Shown piece by piece: positions 36,139-60,909 of a stretch of DNA of 64,000 bases. Position numbers and translations under genes: made by a program. How positions within the stretch are numbered: the first letter of the stretch is position 1; each line of letters begins with the position of its first letter. Under the pieces are notes generated by a model. The model saw nothing but the letters and a program-made list of their open reading frames with translations, was not told the DNA's origin and searched no databases. The stretch is from Verrucomicrobiales bacterium. Its GTDB lineage: Bacteria; Verrucomicrobiota; Verrucomicrobiia; Limisphaerales; UBA9464. Location: positions 4,293 through 68,292 of the forward strand of contig JAIXXC010000093.1 of NCBI GenBank assembly GCA_027490985.1, written 5' to 3'.

Positions 36139-36168
36139 TTTGACATTGTGAACGCCCCTTCCTTAACT
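36139..36168 (+). promoter_or_regulatory. candidate sigma70-type promoter for the gspE-pilT-gspE-gspF operon
   Basis: A perfect TTGACA (36139..36144) is followed after 18 nt by TTAACT (36163..36168), about 65 nt upstream of the GTG start at 36235. It is immediately preceded by the 14-bp palindrome CGGACGGCCGTCCG (36123..36136). Confidence 0.35.
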
Positions 36169-36234
36169 CACCCGCACTTCTTCCCGAGGCCATCGCTCTC
36201 CTGAGCTTGGCCGACGGAAAATCCTGAGGACACC

Positions 36235-37956
36235 GTGGCTGCCAAAGACGATTTTCTGCTCGAAACCATGCTCGACATGGGTCTCACGACCCATGAGGCC
36301 GTCGAAGAGGTGCGTCCGGAGGCCGAGTCCGCCGGCGAAGGCGTGGTCGACACCCTGGTCAAGACCGGCCGCCTGGAGGCCTCGCTGGTCGTCATGGCCA
36401 AGTCGACCTACTTCGGCGTCGAGATGGTCAACCTGTCGGAGACCCGCCTGACCGACGAGGTGATCAACGCCGTGCCCCGGCACGTGGCCCGCAAATACAA
36501 TGCGGTGCCGGTGGCCGAGCACGAGGGCACCGTGGTGGTGGCCCTGGCCGACCCGTCCGACATCGAGGCCATCGACGGCCTCCAGGTGTCCCTGGGCAAG
36601 ACCCTCGAGTACCGCGTCACCAGCGAAGAAGACCTCAAGGCCGCCCTCGACAAGTACTACGGCAACACCAGTTCCGGGGGCCGCGGCGATTCCGAGATCG
36701 CCAAGATGATCCAGGACATCACCGAGGGTGAGGTCGAGATCGGGGAGCTCAAGGGCGACGTGCGGGCCGACAACGAGGCCCTCGACGCCGACGCGCCCAT
36801 CATCCGATTGGTCAACCAGATCATCGTCGACGCCTTCAAGCTCCGCGCTTCGGACATCCACCTCGAGCCCATGGGCAAGCGCTTCCGCCTGCGCTACCGC
36901 ATCGACGGCATGATGACCGAGATGAAGGACATCCCGAAGCGGCTGCAGGCTCCGGTGGTCGCTCGTCTCAAGATTTCCTCGGGAATGAGCATCGCCGAAA
37001 AGCGCATTCCCCAGGACGGTCGTATCCAGACCAACGTGGGCGGCAAGGTCATCGACCTGCGTGTCAACGTCATCCCCTGTTCCCATGGCGAATCGATCGT
37101 CATGCGTATTCTGGACAAGTCCGGTCTCCGCCTGGGCTTGGCCGAATTGGGGTTCATGGCCGACGATCAGGCCAATTTCGAGCGGATGATCGCCTTGCCC
37201 GACGGCATCCTCCTGGTCACCGGCCCCACCGGCTCCGGCAAGACGACCACGCTCTACAGCTGTCTCAACTACATCAATCGTCCGGACCGCAAGATCATCA
37301 CCGTTGAAGACCCGGTCGAGTACATGCTCGCGGGCATCAACCAGGTGCAGGTCCACGAGCACATCGGCTTCACCTTCGCGGCCGCGTTGCGCTCCATGCT
37401 CCGTCAGTCGCCCAACGTGATCATGCTGGGAGAAATCCGCGACATGGAGACCGCGACCATCGCCATCAACGCGTCGCTGACCGGTCACTTGGTGTTCTCC
37501 ACGCTGCACACCAACGATGCTCCGTCGGCGGTGGCCCGTTTGATCGATATCGGTGTGAAACCGTTCTTGGTTGCGTCATCCGCACGCTGCCTCATGGCCC
37601 AGCGTCTGGTCCGCAAGGTCTGCAAGAAGTGCGCCGCACCCCACGCGTTGACCGAGCAGGAGATCGCTGGCTTGGGCTTCACTCCGGAGCAAGTCGCCTC
37701 GGCCACGGCTCGCAAGGGCAAGGGGTGCCCCGAGTGCAACAAGACCGGGTGCAAGGGGCGTTTCGGCCTCTTCGAGATCTTCAACATCAACGACGAGGCC
37801 CGGAAGCTCATCTACGACAAGGTTCCGTCCAACGTGCTGCGCAACCGCGCCCGCGAGATGGGCATGCGCACCCTCCGCGAAGACGGCATGCGCAAGGTCC
37901 TGGCGGGTGTCACCACCGTCGACGAAGTCGTCCGGGCCACCGTCTCGGAGCACTGA
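36235..37956 (+). CDS. gspE: GspE/PulE/PilB-family type IV filament assembly ATPase (paralogue 1)
   Basis: 573-aa ORF with a GTG start and an N-terminal T2SSE_N/MshEN-like domain. It has Walker A (GPTGSGKTTT), the Asp box, Walker B (IMLGEIRD), the His box ([14 protein letters not shown]) and the tetracysteine CKKC...CPEC. Confidence 0.95.
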   Translation: MAAKDDFLLETMLDMGLTTHEAVEEVRPEAESAGEGVVDTLVKTGRLEASLVVMAKSTYFGVEMVNLSETRLTDEVINAVPRHVARKYNAVPVAEHEGTVVVALADPSDIEAIDGLQVSLGKTLEYRVTSEEDLKAALDKYYGNTSSGGRGDSEIAKMIQDITEGEVEIGELKGDVRADNEALDADAPIIRLVNQIIVDAFKLRASDIHLEPMGKRFRLRYRIDGMMTEMKDIPKRLQAPVVARLKISSGMSIAEKRIPQDGRIQTNVGGKVIDLRVNVIPCSHGESIVMRILDKSGLRLGLAELGFMADDQANFERMIALPDGILLVTGPTGSGKTTTLYSCLNYINRPDRKIITVEDPVEYMLAGINQVQVHEHIGFTFAAALRSMLRQSPNVIMLGEIRDMETATIAINASLTGHLVFSTLHTNDAPSAVARLIDIGVKPFLVASSARCLMAQRLVRKVCKKCAAPHALTEQEIAGLGFTPEQVASATARKGKGCPECNKTGCKGRFGLFEIFNINDEARKLIYDKVPSNVLRNRAREMGMRTLREDGMRKVLAGVTTVDEVVRATVSEH

Positions 37957-38076: not shown

Positions 38077-39177
38077 ATGTCCTACCAGATGTCCGACCTG
38101 CTGCAGTTGATGGTCTCCGAAGGCGGAGCCGACCTGCACATCCGGGTCAACATTCCCCCTGTCATCCGCATCCACGGCATCCTCCAGCGCGTCGACGGCC
38201 CGCCGTTGCGCCCCGAGGACACCGAGGAGCTGATGCGGTCCATCACCTCCGAAGACCACATCCAGCAGATCCGCGAGAAGGGCGGCGCCGACTTCGGGTT
38301 CGCCTTCGGTGAGTTGGCCCGTTTCCGTGTCAGCGCGTTCAAGGAGAAGGGCAACTTCGCCCTCGTTCTGCGGCAGATCCCCTCGAAGCTCCTGACGATG
38401 GAGCAGATCGGCATCCCGAGCAGCGTGCGCAACCTCATCAACAAGCCCCGCGGTCTGGTGCTGGTGGTGGGACCCACCGGTTCGGGCAAGACGACGACGT
38501 TGGCCTCGCTCCTCAACATCCTCAACGAGGAGAAGGACGAAGCCCACATCATCACCATCGAAGACCCCATCGAGTATTACCACAAGCACAAGAAGGCCGT
38601 GGTGACCCAGCGGGAGGTCAATGTCGATGTGCCCTCGTTCGCCGAGGCCCTGCGTCGCGCGTTGCGTCAGGATCCCGACATCATCCTGGTGGGTGAGCTT
38701 CGCGACTTGGAGACGATGGAAGCGGCCATCACGGCGGCCGAAACCGGTCACTTGGTCTTCGGAACCCTGCACACCACGGGTGCGGCCAAGACCATCGACC
38801 GTATCGTCAACGCCTTCCCGCAGAACCAGCAGGAGACCATCCGCATCCAGCTCTCCACGGTGCTTCAGGGCGTGATCTCGCAGCTGCTCGTGCCCCGCAT
38901 CGACAAGCCGGGCCGCGTGGCGGTGTTCGAGATCATGATCAACACGCCCTCGGTGGCGGCGCTGATCCGCGACAACAAGACCTTCCGCATCCAGTCCGAC
39001 ATCCAGACCGGCTCCAAGTACGGCATGGTCACCCTCGACGGCTTCCTGCTCGACAAGTGGCAGGCCGGCATGATCTCCGAGGAGGATGTGATCACCAAGG
39101 CGCTGGACCCCATGACCATCACCCAGAAGCTGGACGAGCTCCGCGCCGCCAAGGCCGAGACCCAGGCCCGCAAGTAA
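38077..39177 (+). CDS. pilT: type IV pilus retraction ATPase PilT
   Basis: Internal ATG (MSYQMSDLLQLMVSEGGADLHI) of ORF 37990..39177, giving 366 aa. It has Walker A (GPTGSGKTTT) and ILVGELRD. The PilT-specific C-terminal signature AALIRDNKTFRIQSDIQTGSKYGMVTLD is present. Confidence 0.95.
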   Translation: MSYQMSDLLQLMVSEGGADLHIRVNIPPVIRIHGILQRVDGPPLRPEDTEELMRSITSEDHIQQIREKGGADFGFAFGELARFRVSAFKEKGNFALVLRQIPSKLLTMEQIGIPSSVRNLINKPRGLVLVVGPTGSGKTTTLASLLNILNEEKDEAHIITIEDPIEYYHKHKKAVVTQREVNVDVPSFAEALRRALRQDPDIILVGELRDLETMEAAITAAETGHLVFGTLHTTGAAKTIDRIVNAFPQNQQETIRIQLSTVLQGVISQLLVPRIDKPGRVAVFEIMINTPSVAALIRDNKTFRIQSDIQTGSKYGMVTLDGFLLDKWQAGMISEEDVITKALDPMTITQKLDELRAAKAETQARK

Positions 39178-39201: not shown

Positions 39202-40905
<1,704 letters not shown>

Positions 40906-40951: not shown

Positions 40952-42322
40952 ATGGGCAAATTCAACTACGTTGCCATGGACAGCACTGGCAAGGAGACCA
41001 AGGGTGTCCTCGAGGTGGGCAGCCAGGCCGAGGCGCTCAACCGCCTGAAGGAAATGGGCTTCCTGCCGACCAAGGTCACCGAGGTGGCTCCGCCCAAGTC
41101 CGACGCCAAGGGGGCCAAGGGCGGCAAGGGGGCCGCGGGCGCGGCCGGCGGCAAGGGGGGCAAGAAGGGCGCGGGTCAGATCAACATCAAGATCCCCGGA
41201 TTCGGCGGCAAGGTGAAGGCCAAGGTGTTGACCACCTTCACCCGTCAGCTCGCCACCCTGGTCGAAGCGGGTCTGCCGCTCTTGCGCGGTCTGCGCGTGC
41301 TCGAGAAGCAGGAGCGCAACCCGGTCCTCAAGAAGATCCTTGGTGATCTGTCGCTCTCCATCGAAGGCGGTTCCACCTTCTCCGAAGGTCTGGCCCAGCA
41401 CCCGAAGGTCTTCAACCGCCTGTTCATCAACATGGTGAAGGCGGGCGAACTGGGCGGTGTGCTCGAGGTCGTGCTCAAGCGCTTGGCCGAGTTCATGGAG
41501 AAGGCCGAGAAGATCAAGGGCAAGGTCGTCGCGGCCATGTTCTATCCCATCGCGGTCATGGTGGTCGCGGTGGGCATCGTGGCGCTGCTCATGATCGTCG
41601 TGGTGCCCAAGTTCAAGATGATCTTCGCCGACCTGCTCGGCGGCGATGCGGGCATGCCCGAGTTCACGCTGTTCGTGCTGAAGATCTCCGAGACCCTGAA
41701 GGACAACACGGTCATCTTCCCCGACTGGTTCTTCGGCGGCATGCCCTTTCCCGGTCAGGTCGTCTGGGGCGTCGTGATCTTCGTCATCTCCTTCAAGTTC
41801 GCCATCAAGACCAAGAAGGGCATGTGGTACTTCGACAAGTTCAAGCTCAACATGCCCGCACTCGGTCCGGTGATCAGCAAGGTGGCCATCGCCCGCTTCA
41901 CCCGTACCCTCGGCACGCTGGTCCAATCGGGTGTGCCCATCCTTCAGGCTCTGAACATCGTCCGTGAGACGGCCGGCAACGTGGTGGTGGCCAAGGCGGT
42001 TTTGGATATTCACGAATCGGTCAAGGAGGGTGAAACCATCACCGCTCCGCTTGAAAAATCGGGCGTCTTCCCGCCGATGGTCGTGTCGATGGTCGACGTC
42101 GGTGAGCAGACCGGTGCGTTGCCCGAGATGCTCCTGAAGATCTCCGACAACTACGACGAAGAGGTCGACAACGCCGTCTCGGCCATGACCTCCCTGCTCG
42201 AACCGATCATGATCGTGTTTTTGGCGGTGGTCGTCGGTTCCATCGTCATCGCGATGTTCCTCCCGCTCATCAAGCTGATGGAAACCCTCGGTGGCGACGC
42301 CGGCGGTGGCGGTGACAACTAA
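40952..42322 (+). CDS. gspF: GspF/PilC-family inner-membrane platform protein
   Basis: 456-aa ORF with two T2SSF repeats (FTRQLATLVEAGLPLLRGL... and FTRTLGTLVQSGVPILQAL...) and 3 TM segments. An unusual Lys/Gly/Ala-rich insert sits near the N-terminus. Confidence 0.95.
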   Translation: MGKFNYVAMDSTGKETKGVLEVGSQAEALNRLKEMGFLPTKVTEVAPPKSDAKGAKGGKGAAGAAGGKGGKKGAGQINIKIPGFGGKVKAKVLTTFTRQLATLVEAGLPLLRGLRVLEKQERNPVLKKILGDLSLSIEGGSTFSEGLAQHPKVFNRLFINMVKAGELGGVLEVVLKRLAEFMEKAEKIKGKVVAAMFYPIAVMVVAVGIVALLMIVVVPKFKMIFADLLGGDAGMPEFTLFVLKISETLKDNTVIFPDWFFGGMPFPGQVVWGVVIFVISFKFAIKTKKGMWYFDKFKLNMPALGPVISKVAIARFTRTLGTLVQSGVPILQALNIVRETAGNVVVAKAVLDIHESVKEGETITAPLEKSGVFPPMVVSMVDVGEQTGALPEMLLKISDNYDEEVDNAVSAMTSLLEPIMIVFLAVVVGSIVIAMFLPLIKLMETLGGDAGGGGDN

Positions 42323-42335
42323 AGGCCGTTGATCA

Positions 42336-42366
42336 GGGCCATCGGTGCAAGCCGGTGGCCCTTTTT
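42336..42366 (+). terminator. Rho-independent terminator after gspF
   Basis: GGGCCATCGG-TGCAAG-CCGGTGGCCC forms a 10-bp stem with one G-U pair and is immediately followed by TTTTT. It starts 14 nt after the gspF stop. Confidence 0.8.
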
Positions 42367-42386
42367 GATATCGAAACCGGGTGAAC

Positions 42387-42415
42387 TTGACGGGGTCGCC
42401 GCGTGGGTGTAAATA
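42387..42415 (+). promoter_or_regulatory. candidate promoter in the AT-richer stretch upstream of brnT
   Basis: TTGACG (42387..42392), a 17-nt spacer, then TAAATA (42410..42415). It overlaps or abuts the inverted repeat TGTAA-N11-TTACA (about 42408..42428), which could be an operator. It lies about 55 nt upstream of the brnT ATG. Confidence 0.35.
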
Positions 42416-42471
42416 CAAAGTAGTTACATTGAATGCGCATCGGCCATACGCAGATGGATTGGATGGACTGA

Positions 42472-42759
42472 ATGGAGTTCGACTGGACCAACCTGCCGTT
42501 CGAGCCCGATGCCTCGATCTCCCTGGCGGGCATCGAGGAGTCGTTCGAAGACCCCTTTGCCATCCGTCTGCTGCCCGACTCGGCCCGGTTCGGGGTGCAG
42601 GCGCGCTTCTTCAATCTCGGGAAATCGGCGACGGGGCAGGGGTTCTTCAGCGTGTACCGCACCAACGGCAAGGTCATCCGGGTGGTTCTGTCGCGGCCGT
42701 TCAGCGAGTCCGAGGCGTACTTCTACCAACGGCGGATGAGTCAATCGCTCTCGGCCTAG
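42472..42759 (+). CDS. brnT: BrnT-family (DUF497) ribonuclease toxin
   Basis: 95-aa ORF. The pattern MEFDW...FEDPFA...RFFNLGKSATGQGFFSVYRTNGKVIRVVLSRPFSESEAYFY fits the DUF497 pattern (F.W ... F.DP ... R....G ... iRiiSaR.as..E...Y). Confidence 0.7.
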   Translation: MEFDWTNLPFEPDASISLAGIEESFEDPFAIRLLPDSARFGVQARFFNLGKSATGQGFFSVYRTNGKVIRVVLSRPFSESEAYFYQRRMSQSLSA

Positions 42760-42765
42760 CCGGAA

Positions 42766-42916
42766 CGATTCAGTTGGATCGGTCGCGCTGGCTGCGTCTT
42801 CTTCCGCAAGAGCTTCGTTGTTCGCTCGTTACGGGCCTTCCATCGGCCCGCGCCTCGCTCTCGCCTCGTCTTGCGAAAGAATCCGCCACGCCATCCCTTG
42901 CCTCCCAACTGAATCG
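42766..42916. repeat. 12-bp perfect inverted repeat pair inside the brnT-brnA spacer
   Basis: CGATTCAGTTGG (42766..42777) and CCAACTGAATCG (42905..42916) are exact reverse complements 127 nt apart. They bracket most of the unusually long 201-nt toxin-antitoxin spacer. Confidence 0.5.
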
Positions 42917-42960
42917 GTCCGGCCGAGCCCGCCCGGTCGCCCTTTTCTTGGCCAGAGTCC

Positions 42961-43242
42961 ATGAATCTCCAGACCATCCAGTCGTGGGACGATGTCCCGC
43001 TCTTCGACAGCGAGCAGGCGGAGGCCGACTTCTGGGCCGAGAACCAGATCGATCTCCGCTTGATGGAGCTCTCGGCCACCGCCGGTTCCGAGCAGTCCGA
43101 ATCGGTGACCATCACCCTGCGGATGGATCCCCGGATGCTCAGTCGGATCAAGCGTCTGGCCCGTTCCCGGTTCCTCAACTACCAGAGCATGATCAAACAA
43201 TGGTTGAGCGAGCGCATGGAAAAGGAATTGAAGGACCGGTGA
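42961..43242 (+). CDS. brnA: BrnA-family antitoxin (CopG/RHH-like)
   Basis: 93-aa ORF. DSEQAEADFWAENQID ... VTITLRMDPRMLSRIKRLARSRFLNYQSMIKQWLSERMEKEL matches the BrnA pattern (seeEe.kFW..hd ... isiRl....l..lK.lA...g.pYQsLIK.wL.Er...E). Confidence 0.8.
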   Translation: MNLQTIQSWDDVPLFDSEQAEADFWAENQIDLRLMELSATAGSEQSESVTITLRMDPRMLSRIKRLARSRFLNYQSMIKQWLSERMEKELKDR

Positions 43243-52584: not shown

Positions 52585-55500
52585 ATGCGCCCGTCTCGAA
52601 GCCTGATTGTTGCCATCGCCCTGGCGGTGGGTTCCCTGGGGCTGTACCGCTGGGTACAGCCGCCGGCCGCGAATCCCGCCTCCTCGGTCACCGGGCTGAC
52701 CACGACGCCCGTCGACCCGGCCTCGGCCATCGGTCGTTCTCTGGCCGTCTCGGCCCATGTGGCGGCCAAGCGCCTGGCGGTCCGCCCGTTGGAGGCCGGC
52801 CGGCGTCCGGCTCCCCAGGATGCCGAATTTCCGTGGCGCGCGCGCAACACCGCCAAGACGGTGGACCAGTTGCGCTCCGACCCGCGGGCCCTGGTGCTGC
52901 GCAATGCCCTGATCGACACCCGCACGGGTGAACCGCTGCCGTTGCCGGAGGCGCTGGTGGCCGGTCCGGAGCCCGGATTCCACATCGTCCAATTCTCCCA
53001 CGAGCCCGACGCGGAGTCCCGCCGCCGTCTCGAAGAACAACGCCTGCAGGTGGTCTCGTACCTGCCGGTGAACGCCTTCCTGGTCCAGGGCTCCGACGAG
53101 TCGATCGAGCGATTGGCTCTCGATGCCGACATCGCCTCGGTGTCGCCCTGGCATCCGGCCTTCAAGCTGGAGCCCGAGTTGCTGACCCGGGCCATCGACG
53201 GTCGGCCCCTGGAGGCTGGCGATCGGCTGATGCTTTCTCTGACCGATCCCGAGGCCTTCCCGCGCTTGGAATCCCTCGGCGTGCGCGAGGTGTCCCGGCA
53301 ACGCAGCCCGTTCGGAACCCTGGTCACCGTGGACGTGCCGCCCGACGCGCTGGTTTCCCTGGCCCGGTCGCCCGAGGTGCATCTGATCGAGAAGGCCCAT
53401 CGCCGCGAACTCCTCAACGACCGCTCCGCTTACCAGCTGGGCAGCGCCACCGACGTCACCAACACGGCGTCGTATCGCGGGCTCACCGGCAGCAATGTGG
53501 TGGTCAACATCAACGACTCGGGCATCGATTGGACCCACCCCGACCTCACCACCAATCGGGTCTTCACGGTGGGCTCGCAGACCAACCTCCTCACCGACAC
53601 CGACGGTCACGGCACCCACGTGGCCGGCACCATCGCCGGCAGCGGCGCCCGTTCGCTCGAGATCCAGGGGCCGGCCCAGGGTTCGGTGACCAATGCGCAG
53701 CTCCGCGGACTCGCGCCCAACGCCAAGCTCTTCATCCTGCCGATCGACCTTCAGACCGGGCCGACCATCTCCGACGCCTTCCTCCAGGAGCAGGCGGCGA
53801 TGACCAACGCCCTCATCTCGAACAACAGCTGGGGCTACACCGGGGCCTACGAATACAACTCCATCTCGGCGAGCTACGACGCCGCCTCACGGGATGCGCT
53901 GCCCGAGACCACCGGCGAGCAACCCGTGCTCTTCGTCTTCGCCGCCGGCAACTCCGGCCAGGGCGGCAACAACGGCGTCGGCGGACTCCGTGGGTCGGTC
54001 ACCGTTCCGGGCAACGCCAAGAACGTCATCACCGTCGGAGCGCTCGAGAGCAAGCGCAACCTCACCAACGCGGTGGTCCTCGACGATGAGGGGCGTGTCA
54101 TCTGGGCCGGCGGCAAGCAGTTCCGTGAACCGGGCACCAACGCCGAATTGACCACCAATCTCGTCCTGCGGGCGGCCACCGACACCGACACCGAGGTGGC
54201 CAACTTCTCCAGCCGGGGCAACGTGGGCATCGGCATCGAGGGCAGCTACGGGCGCTTCAAGCCCGATGTGGTGGCTCCGGGTTCCCAGATCCTCTCCGCG
54301 CGTTCGGCCCAGTGGAAACTGGAGGACGAATACGACACCAATTCGGTGCAGTACGCCGTGTTCGACGATCTCAATCGCCCTGTGGCCCCGTGGTATCGGT
54401 TCCTCTCCGGCACGAGCATGGCCGCCCCGGCCGTGTCCGGCCTGTTGGCCCAGATCCAGGAGTTCTGGCATCGCCCGGGCATCACCTTGCCGAGGTACAT
54501 CGAGGCGGCGGCCTACAAGGCATTGGTCATCAACAGCGCCCGCCCTTCGGCCGACGTGTACGCCCCCGATTTCCGCTCCGTCATGAACTACACGGGATGG
54601 GGTCAACCGAGCCTGCCCCGCGCCCTCGACAGCGGTGTGCGCCTCACCCGGGCCGATGGCGCCATCGTGGAATTGGCTGGGTTCGCCGGCGAACTCGCCA
54701 CCGGGGCCAGTCAATCGTTGCGCCTCAAGCTCACGACCAATGAAGTCGCCGCCACCGGTGCCTTCCACTTCACGCTGGTGTGGACCGATCCTCCCGGCAA
54801 TCCCGCCGCGGGCCTCAAGCTGGTCAATGATCTGGACCTCATCGTCTCCAACACCGTCACCGGCGAGGTTTTCGTCGGCAATGATCTGGCCCGAACCGGC
54901 TACACCGCGGGACGTCCGGGAACCAACGCGTTCGAGGTGGTCGAAGCGGGTGTGACCAATTCGGTCTTCGACTCGGTCAACAATGTCGAACGCGTGGTGC
55001 TCGAGCCGCCGCTGGCCCCGGAATATGTCATCCACGTGGTGGCCCGCCGGGTCAACGTCAACGCCCTGGCCTCCCGCGAGTTCCAGAATCTCCAGAACCG
55101 CACCAACATCGTCCAAGACTTCGTGGTGGCCCTCTCGTCCGATGCGGCCTCCGACAACGCCATCGTGGCGACCGCCGAGTATGTCACCGCGTCGTCCGGC
55201 GGGGGCTTCGGCGTGGTCCAGCCGCCGCCGATCTCCGTGGTGGCCACCAACGGCATCCCCGTGTCGGCCTCCCGCGTCGGCGCCCAGTCTCCTCTGGTCG
55301 GGGGCGCGGCCGGTCAGTCGGCGCAATGGCATTTCTTCGTCTTCACCAACCTCTTCAATGCGGAGGCGGCGGCGGCCACGGGCTTGACCAACGGCCAGTA
55401 TGTCGAGTTCGTCATCTCGTCGGCGGCCAATCTGGCGCGGCCCCGCGGCCCCGGCGGAACCGGGTCACGGCTGCGGGATCGCGTGCTGGGCCCCGATCTC

Positions 55501-58500
55501 GACCTGTACATGTCCACCGATCCGGGGCTCACCAACCTCCAGGCGTCGGCTCTGGCCTCGGCCTACCGGTCCACCCTCCAAGGCTTCGACGAACGCATCG
55601 AGATCACCAACGCCCCGGCCAATGGCGAGGTGTATTACATCGGCGTGAAGGCCGAGGATCAGCAGGCCGGTGAATTCGAGTTGGTGGTGCGCAGCAGCGA
55701 CCAGCCCTTCCATGTCCTGGGAGCCAATGGCTACAGCCTGCTCATGACCCCGATCGGCGGCGGGCGGGCGATTCCCGACGGAAGCCCGGACGCTCCCGGA
55801 GTCGTCCGGTATTTCGGCACGGGGCCCTCGGGCATCACCCGGAACGTGACCTTCACCCAGTCGCTCCTCCACGACAACTTCTTCGACCTGCAGGGCACTC
55901 TGATCCACGCCGGATACGGTGTGACCATCAACAATCGCCGATCCATCCGCGACTACGGCACCGGCCTCACCCAGGTCTCGGGTCCGGTGATGGGTCTGTA
56001 CGATGACATCCCGGGCCTGAGGTTCCCGGGGGGGCAGCCGACCGATGGCCCGAGCTCCACGCTCCTCGACTTCTCCGGTCTCGGAAGCACCGGTTCCTGG
56101 AACTACCTGCTGCAGGACGACGTGCTGGGTGGCTCCGGTTCCTTGACCTCGGTGCAGCTCCAGGTGCAGCCGCAGGTGTTGCCCGCCTTCGATCAGCGGG
56201 TCTTCGAGAATATCTGTCTGGGGCCGCAGGCCTACGACTTCCGGCTGCGGATCGTGCCGCCGGATGCCAGCCGGCTGATCATCGAGGTGACCAACATGGT
56301 CCCGGCCAACTTGCCCCTCGAGGTGTACATCCGCCGCGAGGCCTTTCCCGATCCCGACAATCCGGAGGTCAATGATCGCGTGGCCACCCTCCTGGGGCCG
56401 GGCGTGATCAGCATTTCCGTGCGCGATGTCCCCGCCCTCCAGGCCGGCACCTACTTCGTGCTCTTCCACAACCCCTCCGGCGTGGAGCTGTGCTTCGATG
56501 TGGCCATCTATGGCGAGCGCAATCTCTCGTCGAAATTCACCCGCACCATCGAGGGGCGTTCCGCCTCGCTGGCCGATGTCGCCCGCACCGTGGCCTCGGT
56601 GCAGGTCGACGACGCCCGTCCGGTGTCCGATGTGCAGGTGGGGGTCCGGGCCGAGCACGCCCGCGCGTCCGATCTGGCGCTCCGGTTGGTCACCCCCGGC
56701 GGCGCGAGTGCGCTGCTCTTCGAAAATCGCGGCCTCACCAGCACCAATGGCCTGGGTGGCGTCTTGGTGACCAGCAACTACCAGCACGTGGCCTTGTCGC
56801 TCGACCGGGCCGGCGGCGTCGCCCGCATCTACTTCAATGGCGAGGTGGTGGCCGAACAGGCCGTTCAACTCTCGCCCAGCAATACGCCCACCTCGTTCCA
56901 TCTGGGATCGCTGGGGTCGGCCAACCTGCCGGGCAGCCCGATCCAGCTGGATGACTTCGGCCTCTGGCGCCGTTCGTTGCGCGAGGCGGAGATCCGTCAG
57001 ATCTACGATGAGGGCACCTTCGGCCGGGCCAAGGCGACCAACCTGGCCACGGCCGGATTGGCGGCGCTGTGGCCGCTGGACCGCTTCGGGGTGGATACCA
57101 TCGCCGGTCAGACCATCAGCAGCGTGGGCACCACGGTGGCCGGTCAGATGAACTTCGGAATGCGCCAGACGGGGACCGGCACCGGCGCCATCTCCACCGA
57201 CTCCCGCATCCGGGACATCGGCAACCTTCCGGGATTGACCCTCGAGGGTTGGATCAAGCCCGTCTCGGGCAATGAGCGGCTCATCGTCGGCGGCTGGTAT
57301 GACGCCGCCAACAAACGCACCGGTCCCGCCTTGTTCGTGGGTCAGGCCGCGCCCCTGGGCAACGGACCGGGTTCCCTGAGTGCCATCTTCCAGGATGCCA
57401 ATGGCAATCGGGTCGTCCTGAGCACCCCTTCAGGTCTCTTTCCGACCGGTGGTGTGGTCACCAACCGCGCGTTCGCGGTCTTCGGCGACAGCACCAATGG
57501 CGTCTACACCCCGATCAAGTTCGCCCCGACGCCCTACCTGAGCCGCATCGTGCCCCAGGTCCTCTACTCCAACGACTGGGAGACCCTCACTCCGGGCGAG
57601 TATGTCGCCGGTACCAACAGCCTCGAAGGGTGGGTCGTGCTCACCAACCGGGTGTCGATTCTGGCCGGGGGCGCCGAGGGTCAGGTGCTCGACCTGCGCA
57701 ATGCCGCGGTGGAGCGTCAATTCGACTTGAACATCGGTCAGGCCTACCGGCTGGCCTTCACCAGTCGCAAGTCGCCCACGGCCAAGACCGCGGTCAATGC
57801 CCAGGTCTGGGTCGATGGGTCCAGCGTCCTGCGGGTCGACAGCACGCCGGGTTGGGTCACCAACACGGCCTCCTTCGTGGCCCGTTCGTCACGCTCGGCC
57901 GTGGGCTTCGTCTCCACGTCGCCGCCCGCGTCGAACACCAATTTCCCGGCCGGCCTCGAGATCGGGCAGGTGTGGCTCGACCAGGATGGGTCGCCGCTGG
58001 TGTACCAGCCCGAAGAGCCCCTGCGCCCGTTGATGGGACAGCCCGGCACCGGGCTCTGGCAGTTGCAGACCACCGATGCCCGGGGTGGCGAATCGGGGCT
58101 GCTGCTCGACTGGCAGTTGCGCTTCACGTTCATGCCGACCAACCCGCCGACCTTCCGGTTGACCAACGGCATCGCCTTCACCACCAACATCGTGGGTGCG
58201 GATATCCGCTATTTCGTGGTCGATGTGCCGTTGGAGGCCGAACGGGCCACCAACACCCTCATCAACGTCTCCGGCGGCCCCTTGACGATGCTGTACAGCG
58301 CTTCGGGTCTGCCCGATGCCACCGAATCGGACACGGTCACCGTGGTCTCGGGTCTGGCGGCCGGCCAGGCGTTCGCCGGCACGCTCGACTCCAACCTCCC
58401 GCCGCTCCTGCCTCGCGGTCAGCGCTATTACCTGGCGGTCCGGGGAGCCGGAGGCACGTCGTCCAACCAGTTCTCGTTGCAGGCCGATTTCGGAGTGCGC

Positions 58501-60873
58501 ATCACCCCGCTGACCCACCGCATCGCCATCCGGGCCACCAACACCGCACCGATTCTGCAGGAGTACTACTCGTACCAGGTGCCGACCAGCAACGTGCTCG
58601 GAGTCACCTTCACCGTCACGGGCCAGACCCGCGATGTGGATCTGTACGCGGTGCGGGCTCCGAAGCTCCCGGGCGTGGGTCAATACGATTACGCCTCGGT
58701 GACACCGGATGGCACGAATGAGACCCTGGTCATCCACCTCGACAGTCAACCGGTCGCCCTGGCTCCGGGACTGTGGTACCTCGCGGTCACCAATACCTCG
58801 GCCATTCCCGGGGCCGCTTACAGCATCATGGTCGTCGAGCAGCGCGGCCGCATCCAGGAGTTGAAGCCGGGTCAATCCGTCACCGCCAGCCATACCGGCA
58901 CCGACGACGACTACTACTACGTCACCCTGCCCGACGATGCGTCGGCTCTGCGGGTGCGCACGCGCGGAGCGGCTCAAGACCTGATCCTCAGTTCCCGCAG
59001 CCGGCTCCCGGTGCCGACCCCCACCAGCTTCGAATACCGGAGCGACACGGTCGGCTCGGGCGATGAGGACCTGCTCGTGACCACCAACTCCACTCCCGTC
59101 GCCCTGGCGGGTGGACGGTGGTATTTCGCCGTGACCAGCGTCGATGGCTTGCCCGGGCCCTACACGATCTCGGCCGACCTGCGTCTCAAGGACGCCGTGT
59201 TCGAGACGTTGACCAACGAGTTGTGGTTCGAGGCCCAGGCCACCAACGGTCCGGTGGATCTCGACTTCGTCTTCCGCAATCCGGGCGAGGTGAGTGGCAT
59301 CACCTTCGAGCTCGACCAGTTGACCGGCGAGGCCGACCTGGCGGTCAGCCCCGACGAGCCTCTGCCCTTGTCGGCGGTGTCCTTCGCCAATGCCCAGCCG
59401 GGCACCCAGTCCGAGCGGGTCACGGTGCTGGCCGGTCGTGATCTGCCTTCGCTGGGGCGCGATTGGTATCTCCGCGTCCGCCTGCCCTCGACGGGGCCCG
59501 TGCGCTTCCGCATCCGGGCCAGTCTCAATCGTCCGCCGGTGTGGACCGATGTGGGCACGCGCCGGGTGACCGAGGGGCTCCGCCTGTCTCTCACGCTCAA
59601 GGCGACCGATCCCGATCCCTATGGGCAGACGGTGACCTATGGTCTGGTGGCAGGTCCGGCGGGCCTCACGGTGAGCACCAACGGTGTGCTGACGTGGCAA
59701 CCCACCGAGGCGCAGGGTCCGAGCACCAATCGGGTGATCGTCTTCGCCACCGACGGGCTGATGTCGGCGACCAACGAGTTCACCATCCTGGTCCGTGAGT
59801 CGAACCAGCCGCCGGTATGGACCAACCCGGGAACGCGGAAGATCACCGAGGGTTTGCTGGCGTCGTTCCAACTGGTGGCCACGGATGCCGACCTGCCGGT
59901 GCAGTCGCTGGTCTTCGGATTGGTGAAGGGTCCGGACGGGCTCACCGTGAGCACCAACGGTCTGGTCAATTGGCAGCCCACCGAGGCGCAGGGGCCGAGC
60001 ACCAATCGGGTGACCGTGACCGTGAGCGATGGTGGGGTGACGGTGCCGCAGGACTTCGACATCATCGTGCGCGAATCCAACCGGTTGCCCGTGTGGGTGA
60101 CGCTCATCACCACGCGTCGGGTGGCCGAAGGTTCGCTGCTGTCCTTCAATGTCCAGGCCACCGACAGCGATCTTCCGGCACAGCCACTGACCTATCGTCT
60201 GCTCAATGGCCCGACCGGTCTGGTTGTCACGACCAACGGCCTGGTGTCCTGGACCCCGACCGAGGCCCAGGGCCCCAGCACCAATCGGGTCCGCATCGGA
60301 GTCGGTGACGGCGTGGGCAACATTTCCCAGGAGTTCGACATCATCGTGGCCGAGCGCAATCAGCCGCCGGTGTGGACCAACCCGGGCACGCGCCGGGTGA
60401 CCGAGGGTCTGCAGTTGACCTTCACCCTGAAGGCCACCGATGCCGACCTGCCGGTCCAGACGCTGAGTTATTCGCTGGTCCAGGGTCCTGCCGGACTGAA
60501 GGTGTCGACCAATGGTGTGCTGTCCTGGAAGCCGACCGCGGCCCAGGGGCCCAGCACCAACCGTGTCCAGGTGAGTGTGAGCGACGGCGTCGTCTCGGTG
60601 GCGCAGGAGTTCAACATCGTGGTCCAGGAGCCGCCGGCGGTCGAGGCCCGCCTGACCCTGGTGCTCACGTCGCCGAACGGATTCGAGATCGTCTTCGTGG
60701 GTCCGTTTGGCGGTCAGTACATCCTGCAACAGAGCGCTTCACTCGACGGGCCTTGGGTGGCCGTGCCGGGAGTCCAGAAACCCCTCACCGCGGCGGGCTT
60801 GAACGAGCCTCTCAAGGTGGCCTTGCCGGCCACGGCCTCGCCTGAGGCCTTCTACCGCTTCACCAAGCCTTGA
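52585..60873 (+). CDS. giant secreted multidomain subtilisin (S8) - P-domain - LamG - PPC - cadherin-like protein (2762 aa)
   Basis: It starts 22 nt after the GspK-like gene and has an N-terminal signal/anchor and two I9-like propeptide modules. The S8 triad motifs are NINDSGIDWTHPDL (Asp), DGHGTHVAGTIAG (His), NNSWG (Asn) and SGTSMAAPAVSGLLAQ (Ser). Further modules are proprotein-convertase P-domain-like segments (VQVGVRAEHARASDLALRLVTPGG; GLWQLQTTDARGGESGLLLDWQLRF), LamG-like modules, several PPC-like modules and 4 tandem cadherin-like repeats. Confidence 0.9.
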   Translation: MRPSRSLIVAIALAVGSLGLYRWVQPPAANPASSVTGLTTTPVDPASAIGRSLAVSAHVAAKRLAVRPLEAGRRPAPQDAEFPWRARNTAKTVDQLRSDPRALVLRNALIDTRTGEPLPLPEALVAGPEPGFHIVQFSHEPDAESRRRLEEQRLQVVSYLPVNAFLVQGSDESIERLALDADIASVSPWHPAFKLEPELLTRAIDGRPLEAGDRLMLSLTDPEAFPRLESLGVREVSRQRSPFGTLVTVDVPPDALVSLARSPEVHLIEKAHRRELLNDRSAYQLGSATDVTNTASYRGLTGSNVVVNINDSGIDWTHPDLTTNRVFTVGSQTNLLTDTDGHGTHVAGTIAGSGARSLEIQGPAQGSVTNAQLRGLAPNAKLFILPIDLQTGPTISDAFLQEQAAMTNALISNNSWGYTGAYEYNSISASYDAASRDALPETTGEQPVLFVFAAGNSGQGGNNGVGGLRGSVTVPGNAKNVITVGALESKRNLTNAVVLDDEGRVIWAGGKQFREPGTNAELTTNLVLRAATDTDTEVANFSSRGNVGIGIEGSYGRFKPDVVAPGSQILSARSAQWKLEDEYDTNSVQYAVFDDLNRPVAPWYRFLSGTSMAAPAVSGLLAQIQEFWHRPGITLPRYIEAAAYKALVINSARPSADVYAPDFRSVMNYTGWGQPSLPRALDSGVRLTRADGAIVELAGFAGELATGASQSLRLKLTTNEVAATGAFHFTLVWTDPPGNPAAGLKLVNDLDLIVSNTVTGEVFVGNDLARTGYTAGRPGTNAFEVVEAGVTNSVFDSVNNVERVVLEPPLAPEYVIHVVARRVNVNALASREFQNLQNRTNIVQDFVVALSSDAASDNAIVATAEYVTASSGGGFGVVQPPPISVVATNGIPVSASRVGAQSPLVGGAAGQSAQWHFFVFTNLFNAEAAAATGLTNGQYVEFVISSAANLARPRGPGGTGSRLRDRVLGPDLDLYMSTDPGLTNLQASALASAYRSTLQGFDERIEITNAPANGEVYYIGVKAEDQQAGEFELVVRSSDQPFHVLGANGYSLLMTPIGGGRAIPDGSPDAPGVVRYFGTGPSGITRNVTFTQSLLHDNFFDLQGTLIHAGYGVTINNRRSIRDYGTGLTQVSGPVMGLYDDIPGLRFPGGQPTDGPSSTLLDFSGLGSTGSWNYLLQDDVLGGSGSLTSVQLQVQPQVLPAFDQRVFENICLGPQAYDFRLRIVPPDASRLIIEVTNMVPANLPLEVYIRREAFPDPDNPEVNDRVATLLGPGVISISVRDVPALQAGTYFVLFHNPSGVELCFDVAIYGERNLSSKFTRTIEGRSASLADVARTVASVQVDDARPVSDVQVGVRAEHARASDLALRLVTPGGASALLFENRGLTSTNGLGGVLVTSNYQHVALSLDRAGGVARIYFNGEVVAEQAVQLSPSNTPTSFHLGSLGSANLPGSPIQLDDFGLWRRSLREAEIRQIYDEGTFGRAKATNLATAGLAALWPLDRFGVDTIAGQTISSVGTTVAGQMNFGMRQTGTGTGAISTDSRIRDIGNLPGLTLEGWIKPVSGNERLIVGGWYDAANKRTGPALFVGQAAPLGNGPGSLSAIFQDANGNRVVLSTPSGLFPTGGVVTNRAFAVFGDSTNGVYTPIKFAPTPYLSRIVPQVLYSNDWETLTPGEYVAGTNSLEGWVVLTNRVSILAGGAEGQVLDLRNAAVERQFDLNIGQAYRLAFTSRKSPTAKTAVNAQVWVDGSSVLRVDSTPGWVTNTASFVARSSRSAVGFVSTSPPASNTNFPAGLEIGQVWLDQDGSPLVYQPEEPLRPLMGQPGTGLWQLQTTDARGGESGLLLDWQLRFTFMPTNPPTFRLTNGIAFTTNIVGADIRYFVVDVPLEAERATNTLINVSGGPLTMLYSASGLPDATESDTVTVVSGLAAGQAFAGTLDSNLPPLLPRGQRYYLAVRGAGGTSSNQFSLQADFGVRITPLTHRIAIRATNTAPILQEYYSYQVPTSNVLGVTFTVTGQTRDVDLYAVRAPKLPGVGQYDYASVTPDGTNETLVIHLDSQPVALAPGLWYLAVTNTSAIPGAAYSIMVVEQRGRIQELKPGQSVTASHTGTDDDYYYVTLPDDASALRVRTRGAAQDLILSSRSRLPVPTPTSFEYRSDTVGSGDEDLLVTTNSTPVALAGGRWYFAVTSVDGLPGPYTISADLRLKDAVFETLTNELWFEAQATNGPVDLDFVFRNPGEVSGITFELDQLTGEADLAVSPDEPLPLSAVSFANAQPGTQSERVTVLAGRDLPSLGRDWYLRVRLPSTGPVRFRIRASLNRPPVWTDVGTRRVTEGLRLSLTLKATDPDPYGQTVTYGLVAGPAGLTVSTNGVLTWQPTEAQGPSTNRVIVFATDGLMSATNEFTILVRESNQPPVWTNPGTRKITEGLLASFQLVATDADLPVQSLVFGLVKGPDGLTVSTNGLVNWQPTEAQGPSTNRVTVTVSDGGVTVPQDFDIIVRESNRLPVWVTLITTRRVAEGSLLSFNVQATDSDLPAQPLTYRLLNGPTGLVVTTNGLVSWTPTEAQGPSTNRVRIGVGDGVGNISQEFDIIVAERNQPPVWTNPGTRRVTEGLQLTFTLKATDADLPVQTLSYSLVQGPAGLKVSTNGVLSWKPTAAQGPSTNRVQVSVSDGVVSVAQEFNIVVQEPPAVEARLTLVLTSPNGFEIVFVGPFGGQYILQQSASLDGPWVAVPGVQKPLTAAGLNEPLKVALPATASPEAFYRFTKP
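59527..60630 (+). repeat. four tandem ~276-nt coding repeats (cadherin-like / He_PIG-type Ig domains) inside the giant S8 gene
   Basis: Repeat units start at 59527, 59803, 60079 and 60358. Each encodes N(Q/R)PPVWTxxGTRxxTEGxxLxFxLxATDxDLPxQxLxYxLVxGPxGLxVSTNGxLxWxPTEAQGPSTNRVxVxVxDG...FxIxV. Long near-identical nucleotide stretches occur between units (e.g. CCCACCGAGGCGCAGGG.CCGAGCACCAATCGGGTGA). Confidence 0.9.
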
Positions 60874-60883
60874 GTCGGACCCT

Positions 60884-60909
60884 GGCCTGTCTCCGTTCGG
60901 AGACGGGCC
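60884..60909 (+). terminator. strong hairpin after the giant S8 gene (convergent with mtnA)
   Basis: GGCCTGTCTCC-GTTC-GGAGACGGGCC forms an 11-bp stem with one G-U pair and a tetraloop. It starts 11 nt after the stop. The T-run (ATTTT) is only 14 nt further on, so this is not a textbook intrinsic terminator. Confidence 0.5.

What the first reader, a model, noticed from the sequence alone, without database searches (positions are those of the whole stretch)
36139..60909. Split ~25-kb type IV filament locus: retraction ATPase plus two assembly ATPases, then a 17.6-kb pseudopilin operon ending in two giant genes, with no secretin in sight
Seen in the sequence:
- Operon 1 is gspE-pilT-gspE-gspF, closed by a strong intrinsic terminator.
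- After a toxin-antitoxin wedge come five class-III-signal pseudopilins in G/G/H/I/J-like order, a 1552-aa GspK-like protein and a 2762-aa secreted subtilisin/adhesin-like protein.
- Gene gaps in this second operon are 1-nt overlap, 4-nt overlap, or 4 to 50 nt, and the only hairpin terminator comes after the last gene.

Established knowledge:
- G-H-I-J-K order is the T2SS hallmark.
- PilT is a T4aP hallmark and is absent from classical T2SS.
- Classical loci of either type also encode a secretin, GspC/L/M or PilM/N/O/P, and a prepilin peptidase. None of these is in this 64-kb window.

Inference: the locus mixes T2SS and T4aP traits and couples the tip-complex genes to two giant extracellular proteins. 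It may be an uncharacterised type IV filament subtype of PVC bacteria, either a retractile fibre carrying a giant tip or a secreton with a dedicated giant cargo.
Basis: partly seen in the sequence, partly recalled or inferred. Interest (0 to 1): 0.85.

Follow-up and report, generated by a model that had tools for sequence, protein, structure and literature searches.

The report
Pilus locus with giant tip proteins
This is a real 25-kb gene module, conserved across a large group of mostly uncultured Verrucomicrobia, that encodes the motors and subunits of a pilus-like filament together with two giant extracellular proteins; it is an undescribed variant of a known machine, not a new kind.

Summary
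36235-42322 encodes PilB-like, PilT, PilB/GspE-like ATPases and a PilC/GspF platform, closed by a strong terminator. 42472-60873 encodes a BrnT/BrnA-like pair, five prepilin-type proteins (G, G, H, I, J-like), a 1552-aa protein with a GspK/PilX-type N-terminus, and a 2762-aa subtilase with an intact catalytic triad.

Three points of the interpretation need correction.
- The "toxin-antitoxin wedge" is a fixed part of the module. It sits in the same place in about 66 of 68 related loci, and 64 of 66 carry a conserved promoter and double-palindrome operator upstream.
- H-I-J-K order followed by a large non-pilin protein is as much a type IVa pilus trait (fimU-pilVWX-pilY1, mshDOP-mshQ) as a T2SS one.
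- A missing secretin is normal for multi-locus T4aP. None lies within 10 kb in 86 loci.

The pseudopilin-K-S8 block is invariably syntenic, with at least 585 hits in species-representative genomes. The ATPase operon is adjacent in about two thirds of loci.

My best reading is a retractile type IV filament capped by the giant K pilin, with the giant protease as tip partner or cargo, switched by the BrnA-like repressor. ATPase subtype and the location of the secretin remain unresolved. This is a new variant of a known kind.

The parts
36140..36168 (+). Promoter-like element upstream of E1 (TTGACA, 17 nt, TTAACT)
   Evidence: Sequence and coordinates. Partly conserved in 3 related loci. This is weak evidence. 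It carries no TGTA operator.
36235..37956 (+). E1: PilB-like extension ATPase (573 aa, GTG start), MshEN + T2SSE
   Evidence: Pfam. NCBIfam PilB 618.9 against GspE 593, both below cutoff. Best PDB matches are full-length Geobacter and Myxococcus PilB. Homologues are 71-98% identical. Walker A and CxxC...CxxC motifs can be read.
38077..39177 (+). PilT-family retraction ATPase (366 aa)
   Evidence: NCBIfam TIGR01420 439 bits, above the 319.1 cutoff. It is the most conserved gene of the module, median 82% identity in distant loci.
39202..40905 (+). E2: second PilB/GspE-like ATPase (567 aa), MshEN + T2SSE
   Evidence: Pfam. GspE 620.9 against PilB 618.1, both below cutoff. Best PDB match is Myxococcus PilB over the full length.
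40952..42322 (+). F: PilC/GspF inner-membrane platform (456 aa)
   Evidence: T2SSF with two stretches, 8e-68. PilC(Myxo) 395.7 against GspF 372.9, both below cutoff.
42335..42367 (+). Intrinsic terminator closing the ATPase operon
   Evidence: 12-bp stem with 8 GC pairs, followed by TTTTT.
42387..42427 (+). Conserved promoter and operator: TTGAC, then GTAAATAC-AAA-GTAGTTAC (two GTA-N2-TAC palindromes overlapping the -10 position)
   Evidence: Unique in the window, with 0 expected by shuffling. Found 46-68 nt upstream of the BrnT-like ATG in 64 of 66 loci, with TTGAC 21-23 nt before it in 60 of 63.
42472..42759 (+). BrnT-like (DUF497) protein, 95 aa
   Evidence: Pfam BrnT_toxin is weak, 17.9 bits against a 34.5 cutoff. 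JGI names homologues 'DUF497 family'. Almost always 95 aa (57 of 66 sequences, range 93-99) and 54-87% identical.
42759..42923 (.). Window-specific spacer of about 165 nt bounded by a 19-nt inverted repeat, between the BrnT-like and CopG-like genes
   Evidence: Inverted-repeat arms at 42759-42777 and 42905-42923, 95% complementary. Other loci have gaps of 0-60 nt at this position.
42961..43242 (+). CopG/BrnA-like ribbon-helix-helix protein, 93 aa
   Evidence: PF12441 at 41.9 bits, above the 28 cutoff. NCBIfam BrnA is weak. Identity is 60-97% across loci.
43277..44062 (+). P1: prepilin-type protein, GspG/H-like N-terminus (261 aa)
   Evidence: N_methyl 1.9e-6. GspH and GspG about 33 bits each.
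44110..44892 (+). P2: GspG-like pseudopilin (260 aa), candidate major subunit
   Evidence: N_methyl 3.2e-8 and T2SSG 3.3e-5. GspG 55.5 bits, below the 88.85 cutoff. The C-terminus ...SLGPDGKADF...NIYSWK is read.
44935..45849 (+). P3: GspH / Verru_Chthon cassette D-like pseudopilin (304 aa)
   Evidence: TIGR02596 45.2 bits (cutoff 70); GspH 26 bits.
45849..46778 (+). P4: GspI-position pseudopilin, Verru_Chthon cassette B-like (309 aa)
   Evidence: TIGR02598 21.9 bits (cutoff 51.4). Class III signal AAFTMIEIAL.
46813..47907 (+). P5: GspJ / Verru_Chthon cassette C-like pseudopilin (364 aa)
   Evidence: N_methyl 1.1e-5. TIGR02599 and GspJ weak, N-terminus only.
47904..52562 (+). K: giant GspK/PilX-class pilin-like protein (1552 aa). 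It has an N-terminal hydrophobic helix without Glu5, a beta-rich body and a conserved C-terminal strand.
   Evidence: Family-level hits to PilX_N, GspK and Verru_Chthon A at the N-terminus. More than 1178 homologues and 990 clusters at 50% identity. AlphaFold models have pLDDT 68 and 62, with no PDB fold or sequence match.
52585..60873 (+). S8: giant pre-pro-subtilase with P-domain, LamG, Big_9 repeats and a conserved C-terminal domain (2762 aa)
   Evidence: Pfam. D311, H342, N413 and S611 are 100% conserved in 58 sequences. It lies directly after K in all informative loci. The C-terminus [FY]YR[VIL]xx[VL]P is conserved.
60884..60909 (+). Stable hairpin after the last gene (not a canonical U-tailed terminator)
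   Evidence: Not called by the terminator scan.

Best explanation
The locus encodes the cytoplasmic motor set and the complete filament-subunit set of a type IV filament machine of the T4aP/T2SS clade. It is vertically inherited in a large verrucomicrobial lineage (Limisphaerales/Pedosphaera-type).

Proposed mechanism:
1. Two PilB-type ATPases (E1, E2) and the platform F polymerise G-like subunits (P2, perhaps P1).
2. Polymerisation starts on an initiation complex made of P3, P4, P5 and K, which are the GspH/I/J/K (FimU/PilV/PilW/PilX) equivalents.
3. K, a 1.2-1.7 k-residue pilin-like protein without Glu5, stays at the tip as a giant cap.
4. PilT depolymerises the fibre, so the filament cycles between extension and retraction.
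5. The 2762-aa catalytically competent subtilase occupies the gene position of PilY1/MshQ. It is exported by Sec and is the filament's dedicated partner. I favour it being held at, or handed over by, the K-capped tip, giving a protease/adhesin-tipped retractile fibre for capturing and degrading polymers.
6. The subunit operon is transcribed from a conserved sigma-70-like promoter. Its -10 region is covered by two GTA-N2-TAC palindromes, the presumed operator of the BrnA-like RHH protein. The BrnT-like partner modulates repression.
7. The secretin, alignment complex and prepilin peptidase are encoded elsewhere.

Shown here: gene content, synteny, conservation, the intact catalytic triad and the operator motif.
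Inferred: subunit order in the fibre, tip location of K, attachment of S8, retraction, and the regulatory role of the small pair.
For: - Domain content of the module.
- PilT scores above its curated cutoff and is the most conserved gene.
- E1 and E2 align over their full length to PilB, including the N-terminal domain.
- P3, P4, P5 and K match cassette D, B, C, A and GspH, -, J, K in that order. K-family N-termini match PilX_N and GspK.
- The block BrnT-CopG-P1..P5-K-S8 is invariant in about 66 of 68 loci, down to 29% K identity. At least 585 hits were confirmed in a collection holding one genome per species.
- The S8 catalytic residues are invariant in 58 sequences.
- The extreme C-terminus of S8 is conserved although the upstream repeats come and go.
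- Published precedent: large proteins encoded just after pilIJK homologues (PilY1, MshQ) dock at the tip by a C-terminal beta-strand. CpaL is a pilin-like protein with a large insertion (PMC13533445).
- The operator and promoter are conserved in 64 of 66 loci.
- Cytoplasmic parts evolve slowly and exposed parts fast, as expected for a surface filament.
Against: - No secretin, PilMNOP/GspCLM or prepilin peptidase is in the window or within 10 kb in 86 loci. A complete machine is therefore assumed, not shown.
- ATPase and platform scores fall just below both the PilB/PilC and the GspE/GspF cutoffs.
- E-T-E-F is not adjacent in 20 loci.
- S8 has no PilY1/PilC domain.
- A similar C-terminal FYRL domain occurs in at least one unrelated flanking ORF, so it may be a generic domain and not a docking strand.
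- K has its own conserved terminal strand. Under the published model, that would make a partner strand supplied in trans unnecessary.
- The K models are of moderate confidence, and no pilin fold was recovered.
Confidence: 0.45

Rival explanations
1. The locus is a T2SS-like secreton with a dedicated cargo. The G-like pseudopilins and the H-I-J-K-like cap form a short periplasmic piston that pushes the Sec-exported giant subtilase through a secretin encoded elsewhere. S8 is released and is not tip-bound. PilT either resets the pseudopilus or serves another pilus.
For: - P2 is GspG-like, with a GspG-type C-terminus.
- E2 scores marginally higher on GspE than on PilB.
- K has a conserved terminal strand of its own, as GspK does (PMC13533445).
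- S8 has the pre-pro architecture and intact triad of a secreted protease.
- From my own knowledge, not checked here: cargo genes next to their T2SS are known (pulA with the pul genes), and subtilases are T2SS or T4P-dependent exoproteins (Dichelobacter nodosus).
Against: - PilT is embedded between the two ATPases and is the most conserved gene. Classical T2SS have no retraction ATPase.
- There is no GspC/L/M/D in the locus, whereas classical T2SS keep them with the rest of the system.
- S8 carries adhesin-type repeats.
Confidence: 0.3
2. Two functionally separate units lie side by side. E-T-E-F is the cell's general T4aP motor operon and serves pilins encoded elsewhere, such as the orphan prepilin at 18816-19643. 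The pseudopilin-K-S8 operon is one of several subunit cassettes (Verru_Chthon-type) that plug into that machine. It may supply only an alternative tip set.
For: - The ATPase operon is absent upstream in 20 of about 64 loci, and a strong terminator and a separate promoter divide the two operons.
- An orphan prepilin gene sits in the window.
- P3, P4, P5 and K resemble the Verru_Chthon cassette proteins D, B, C and A. From memory, not verified here: that cassette occurs in multiple copies per genome.
- From my own knowledge: M. xanthus has three interchangeable minor-pilin/PilY1 clusters (the paper PMC7541494 was listed but not read).
Against: - Adjacency is kept in about two thirds of loci across deep divergence.
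- The top 80 hits come from 80 different assemblies, one locus each. This argues against a multi-copy cassette.
Confidence: 0.15
3. The BrnT/CopG pair is an ordinary type II toxin-antitoxin addiction module that happens to be fixed here and has no role in the filament.
For: - The CopG_antitoxin Pfam hit is above its cutoff, and there are weak BrnT/DUF497 hits.
- The gene order (toxin first) and sizes are typical of BrnTA (own knowledge).
- Palindromic operators are typical of TA autoregulation.
Against: - The pair sits in the same position in about 66 of 68 loci, including those where the ATPase operon is elsewhere. Length is almost always 95 aa (57 of 66) and identity 54-97%, while neighbouring pilins are 30-39% identical.
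- No terminator on the + strand separates it from P1; the gap is 34 nt.
- Mobile TA modules are patchy, not order-wide syntenic (own knowledge).
Confidence: 0.1

Closest known systems
T4aP minor-pilin/PilY1 operon (P. aeruginosa fimU-pilVWXY1E; M. xanthus minor-pilin/PilY1 clusters) with pilB-pilT-pilC motors
   Same: - PilB-architecture ATPases, a PilT-family ATPase and a PilC/GspF platform.
- H-I-J-K-class pilins in conserved order, followed directly by a very large Sec-exported non-pilin protein.
- Machine genes dispersed over several loci.
   Different: - Two PilB-like paralogues flank PilT.
- The K-class pilin is 1.2-1.7 k residues and has no recognisable fold match.
- The downstream protein is a subtilase without a PilY1/PilC propeller.
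- Two GspG-like subunits sit in the same operon.
- A BrnTA-like pair and its operator head the operon.
Classical T2SS pseudopilus genes gspG-H-I-J-K with GspE/GspF
   Same: - G-like subunit followed by H/I/J/K-like order.
- The K homologue lacks Glu5 and has its own conserved terminal strand.
- E2 and F score close to the GspE and GspF models.
   Different: - PilT is present.
- No GspC/L/M/D/O in the locus.
- All scores are below the equivalog cutoffs.
- K is about five times the size of GspK.
Verru_Chthon cassette proteins A-D (NCBIfam/TIGRFAM TIGR02600, 02598, 02599, 02596)
   Same: - Verrucomicrobial four-gene set of prepilin-like proteins that ends in a protein of more than 1,000 aa.
- P3, P4, P5 and K give their best or near-best hits to D, B, C and A respectively.
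   Different: - All hits cover only the N-terminus and are far below the cutoffs (45 against 70, 22 against 51, 23 against 257, 12 against 332 bits).
- No function is published for the cassette; the literature search found nothing.
- It is not known whether the cassette is linked to an S8 protein or a BrnTA pair.
MshQ of the MSHA pilus and CpaL/TadG of Tad pili (PMC13533445)
   Same: - Large proteins (about 1200 and about 600 aa) tied to the pilIJK-type initiation complex.
- MshQ is encoded immediately after the pilIJK homologues.
- CpaL is a pilin-like protein with a large dispensable middle region, whose own C-terminal strand completes the N-terminal sheet.
   Different: No sequence relationship was detected.
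BrnT/BrnA type II toxin-antitoxin system
   Same: A DUF497/BrnT-like protein of 95 aa followed by a CopG/RHH protein, with a palindromic operator in their promoter.
   Different: Fixed, vertically inherited position at the head of a 17-kb pilin operon across a whole lineage. Toxicity is untested, and the BrnT HMM score is below its cutoff.

Membership tests
Type IVa pilus (T4aP) | PilT/PilU-family retraction ATPase | tested here: met
   TIGR01420 439 bits against a 319.1 cutoff.
Type IVa pilus (T4aP) | PilB-type extension ATPase | tested here: inconclusive
   E1 618.9 and E2 618.1 bits against a 675.65 cutoff. Both align end to end (2-563 of 564), and the best PDB hits are PilB. No phylogeny was possible.
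Type IVa pilus (T4aP) | PilC platform | tested here: inconclusive
   Pfam T2SSF is met. PilC(Myxo) scores 395.7 against a 700 cutoff, and GspF 372.9 against 424.
Type IVa pilus (T4aP) | PilMNOP alignment complex, PilQ secretin, PilD peptidase | not testable with these tools
   None in the window and none within 10 kb in 86 loci. T4aP are usually multi-locus.
Type IVa pilus (T4aP) | PilY1/PilC-type tip adhesin (C-terminal beta-propeller) | tested here: not met
   S8 has no PilY1/PilC domain. Its hits are Peptidase_S8, P_proprotein, Laminin_G_3 and Big_9.
Type II secretion system (T2SS) | GspE ATPase and GspF platform | tested here: inconclusive
   E2 620.9 against a 630.25 cutoff; F 372.9 against 424.
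Type II secretion system (T2SS) | GspG major pseudopilin followed by GspH-I-J-K | tested here: inconclusive
   The order and N-terminal similarity are present, but every score is below its cutoff: GspG 55.5 against 88.85, GspH 26-33 against 80, GspJ 19.5 against 64.85, GspK 14 against 130.
Type II secretion system (T2SS) | GspC/L/M and secretin GspD encoded with the system; no retraction ATPase | tested here: not met
   None of these are in or beside the locus. PilT is present.
Verru_Chthon cassette (TIGR02596/02598/02599/02600) | Four proteins scoring above the family cutoffs | tested here: not met
   P3 45.2 against 70; P4 21.9 against 51.4; P5 22.8 against 256.5; K 11.8 against 332.3 (best family member E 9.4e-9, N-terminus only).
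BrnT/BrnA type II toxin-antitoxin | BrnT (DUF497) toxin domain | tested here: inconclusive
   17.9 bits against a 34.5 cutoff for the window protein. Some homologues carry precomputed PF04365 hits, and JGI names them DUF497.
BrnT/BrnA type II toxin-antitoxin | CopG/RHH antitoxin encoded next to the toxin | tested here: met
   PF12441 41.9 bits against a 28 cutoff. The gene pair is adjacent in all loci.
BrnT/BrnA type II toxin-antitoxin | Toxin activity neutralised by the antitoxin; mobile, patchy distribution | not testable with these tools
   Activity is untestable here. The distribution seen is fixed and syntenic, not patchy.

The most novel reading that the evidence does not exclude
This is a distinct, order-wide type IV filament subtype. 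A retractile fibre is driven by a PilB-PilT-PilB' motor trio and capped by a giant pilin of new fold. It carries a giant active subtilase at its tip, making it a 'fishing rod' that binds and digests particulate protein or prey surfaces. The whole subunit operon is switched by a domesticated BrnT/BrnA toxin-antitoxin pair.
Probability: 0.25. Interest if true: 0.8.

Novelty: new variant of a known kind. Interest (0 to 1): 0.6.

Why it matters
- Limisphaerales-type Verrucomicrobia are abundant polymer degraders in lakes, soils and groundwater, and almost none are cultured. A conserved 25-kb module takes up a large share of coding capacity: K and S8 alone are 13 kb. It is likely central to how these cells touch or digest their substrates.
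- The locus gives filament biology a natural test of how large a tip subunit can be. It also tests whether a protease can replace PilY1-type adhesins, and what a second PilB paralogue beside PilT does.
- The fixed BrnTA-like pair with a conserved operator would be a clear case of a toxin-antitoxin module recruited as a dedicated operon regulator.

Tried and rejected
- Fold assignment for K. AlphaFold models of residues 1-1200 (pLDDT 67.9) and 960-1552 (pLDDT 62.5) gave no Foldseek PDB hit with E below 0.01. Profile and sequence searches of PDB gave nothing for K, the BrnT-like or the CopG-like protein. The GspK/PilX call therefore rests on the N-terminus and on gene position only.
- Searching for the secretin, PilMNOP and PilD. 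They are absent from every window ORF. Of 154 flanking ORFs, 120 unrelated clusters result; the only recurrent neighbour is a roughly 310-350-aa ORF downstream of S8 (15 loci), and in the one locus with precomputed annotation the gene at that position is a PfkB kinase. They are also absent from the 10 kb upstream of E1 in five more contigs.
- ATPase phylogeny. No reference set was available offline. HMM and PDB scores did not separate PilB from GspE for E2.
- The 'FYRF' C-terminus shared by P4 and S8. It is conserved in P4 only among close relatives, so I rejected it as meaningful.
- S8's C-terminal domain as a specific docking strand. This is weakened by a similar domain in an unrelated ORF of L054.
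- Literature. Nothing was found on the Verru_Chthon cassette, on verrucomicrobial type IV filaments beyond Akkermansia, or on BrnTA linked to pili.
- A shared operator upstream of E1. None was found.


Full report
**1. What is in the sequence**

The window has about 66% G+C. On the + strand, 36235-60873 holds thirteen tightly packed genes.

Operon 1:
- E1 (36235-37956) and E2 (39202-40905) each carry MshEN and T2SSE domains (E 1e-131 and 1e-137).
- Between them lies a 366-aa T2SSE-core protein (38077-39177).
- After E2 comes a two-domain T2SSF platform (40952-42322).
- A 12-bp, 8-GC hairpin followed by TTTTT at 42335-42362 closes this operon.

Operon 2:
- A 95-aa weak BrnT/DUF497 match (42472-42759) and a 93-aa CopG_antitoxin/RHH protein (42961-43242) come first.
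- Five proteins with canonical G|FTLxE class III signals follow (P1-P5, 43277-47907).
- Then comes a 1552-aa protein whose N-terminus (RRG|VALVITLIMLSVV, no Glu5) is of GspK/PilX type (47904-52562).
- Last is a 2762-aa protein with a hydrophobic N-terminal leader and these domains: Peptidase_S8 (302-655), P-domain, LamG, four Big_9 repeats (52585-60873).

The hairpin after the last gene (60884-60909) is stable but has no adjacent U-tract.

The rest of the window encodes housekeeping and transport functions. No secretin, PilMNOP/GspCLM or prepilin peptidase is present. One extra orphan prepilin gene lies at 18816-19643.

**2. Typing the parts**

- PilT is unambiguous: TIGR01420 scores 439 bits against a cutoff of 319.
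- E1 and E2 both align end to end with the 564-position PilB model. Their best solved relatives are full-length Geobacter and Myxococcus PilB. However, both fall just below the PilB cutoff (619 and 618 against 676), and E2 scores equally on GspE (621 against 630).
- F is likewise between PilC and GspF. Without reference sets I could not build the phylogeny that would settle this.
- P2 is the most GspG-like subunit (55 bits).
- P3, P4, P5 and K give their best or near-best hits, in that order, to Verru_Chthon cassette proteins D, B, C, A and to GspH, -, GspJ, GspK. All of these hits cover only the N-terminus and are below cutoff.
- Eight of 12 K-family members also hit PilX_N.
- K has no PDB relative by sequence or profile. 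Two AlphaFold models (pLDDT 68 and 62) show a 60-residue N-terminal helix, a confident beta-rich body (residues 465-1160) and three long C-terminal strands. Neither model has a Foldseek match below E 0.01.

**3. Comparative evidence**

K has more than 1178 homologues among the 8000 candidates scored in the clustered protein collection. All are unannotated, and all carry Verrucomicrobia labels where a label exists. The conserved C-terminal third defines 990 clusters at 50% identity. The 80 best loci were fetched.

tblastn of the thirteen window proteins against these loci gave the following:
- The block BrnT-like, CopG-like, P1-P5, K, S8 appears in the same order in essentially every locus with enough flank (66 of 68 for the small pair; K followed by S8 in all untruncated cases). 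This holds down to 29% K identity and in a 40% G+C genome.
- Two independent contig look-ups with precomputed Pfam hits show the same thirteen-gene order at 37% and 65% K identity, with unrelated flanks.
- E-T-E-F lies directly upstream in 43-44 loci and in five further contigs found through E1. In 20 loci other genes precede the BrnT-like gene.
- The flanks are otherwise unrelated: 154 ORFs fall into 120 clusters. The only recurrent neighbour is a roughly 310-350-aa ORF downstream of S8 (15 loci); in the one locus with precomputed annotation the gene there is a PfkB kinase.

The giant genes therefore belong with the pseudopilins, and the motor operon is a frequent but separable neighbour.

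**4. The "toxin-antitoxin wedge" is part of the module**

The BrnT-like protein is almost always 95 aa (57 of 66 sequences, range 93-99). It shares a conserved core, EESFEDPFAxRLLPDSxRFxVQARFFNLG...FSVYRTNGK..RVI.ARPF...E.FFYQRK.

Median identities in the 69 distant loci are:

| Protein | Median identity |
|---|---|
| PilT | 82% |
| CopG-like | 74% |
| F | 73% |
| E2 | 69% |
| BrnT-like | 64% |
| S8 | 40% |
| P1-P5 and K | 30-39% |

The DNA upstream is also conserved. A TTGAC lies 21-23 nt before GTAAATAC-AAA-GTAGTTAC, which is two 8-bp palindromes (window 42387-42427). This motif sits 46-68 nt before the ATG in 64 of 66 loci, including loci that lack the ATPase operon. It is unique in the window and essentially confined to this site in 1.6 Mb of loci.

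This is what an RHH operator overlapping a -10 element looks like. Only 34 nt, with no + strand terminator, separate the CopG-like gene from P1.

I infer that the pair is a domesticated regulator of the subunit operon. The window copy carries an extra spacer of about 165 nt, flanked by inverted repeats, between the two small genes.

**5. The subtilase**

The catalytic Asp, His and Ser and the oxyanion Asn are invariant in 58 homologues. Residues 100-2300 are alignable throughout. The Big_9 repeat block (2300-2750) is present in only about 30% of homologues. A C-terminal domain of about 70 aa, ending [FY]YR[VIL]xx[VL]P, is nevertheless retained.

Ellison et al. (PMC13533445) report three relevant points:
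- PilY1/PilC anchor to the tip by donating their last ~10 residues as a strand to the PilK sheet.
- MshQ, encoded just after the pilIJK homologues, is predicted to do the same.
- GspK and CpaL supply that strand in cis.

In this locus both K (conserved ...VVE[DS][HY]RVL) and S8 have conserved termini, so either mode is possible. A similar FYRL domain in an unrelated ORF of L054 cautions against over-reading the S8 tail.

**6. Interpretation**

The most economical reading is a T4aP/T2SS-clade filament machine. Its motors (two PilB-type ATPases, PilT, platform) and its full subunit set are encoded here. Its outer-membrane and alignment parts are encoded elsewhere. This layout is usual for T4aP (PMC6668835) and is seen for the PilQ cluster of Akkermansia (PMC10688800).

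In this reading, K is the tip cap and S8 is the dedicated partner, either tip-bound (my preference, about 0.45 for the whole scenario) or exported cargo (about 0.3).

Part of it, however, rests on treating H-I-J-K order and a missing secretin as diagnostic, which they are not.

**7. Novelty**

I found no description of this module, of giant K-class pilins, or of a BrnTA-headed pilin operon. The nearest curated concept is the functionally uncharacterised Verru_Chthon cassette, and the module fails that cassette's thresholds.

The locus is a new variant of a known kind. It is widespread, testable and moderately surprising. It is not categorically new.

Noticed in passing
window 18816-19643 (+): Orphan prepilin-type gene (275 aa; [37 protein letters not shown]..., ending ...FVDGHAELV). 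It lies 17 kb upstream of the locus. It is a further likely substrate of the prepilin peptidase and perhaps of the same machine. My GC3-based gene call missed it.
   Followed up: partly
window 42759-42923: A spacer of about 165 nt bounded by a 19-nt, 95% complementary inverted repeat lies between the BrnT-like and CopG-like genes. Most related loci have only 0-60 nt there. It contains a terminator-like hairpin at 42920-42939. It may be a small MITE-like insertion that uncouples the two genes in this genome.
   Followed up: partly
window 30939-36084 (+): A PSCyt2/PSD1 (DUF1549/DUF1553) protein of about 1224 aa is followed by a DUF1501 protein immediately upstream of E1. This is the pair typical of Planctomycetes and Verrucomicrobia. 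It is not conserved next to the module in other loci.
   Followed up: no
L054:~1340-2048 (+), and the C-termini of S8 homologues: The C-terminal domain of about 70 aa ending FYR[VIL] that terminates S8 homologues also ends an unrelated ORF upstream of the module in L054. It may be a generic C-terminal sorting or anchoring domain of this lineage.
   Followed up: partly
window 46740-46778 (P4 C-terminus): P4 ends ...HFYRFPPGAL, echoing the S8 terminus ...AFYRFTKP. The motif is kept only in the closest relatives (L002-L011), so it is probably coincidental.
   Followed up: yes
L006, L007, L010, L024, L029, L035, L063 (record titles): Several contigs carrying the module are titled 'Akkermansia muciniphila' or 'Akkermansia sp.' MAGs, although the sample names and composition look environmental. 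Two others are titled Limnocylindria and Aquilonibacter. These are likely mislabelled or mis-binned, so taxon labels in this set should be treated with care.
   Followed up: no
downstream of S8 in 15 loci (e.g. L012, L013, L014, L020, L023, L026): A gene of about 310-350 aa recurs directly after S8 in one sub-clade; in the one annotated locus the gene at that position is a PfkB-family kinase. It is absent from the window, where MtnA (60991-62238, - strand) and a DeaD helicase follow.
   Followed up: no
window 36140-36168: A promoter-like TTGACA-N17-TTAACT lies upstream of E1 and is partly conserved in three related contigs. It lacks the GTA-N2-TAC operator, so the two operons appear to be regulated separately.
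   Followed up: partly
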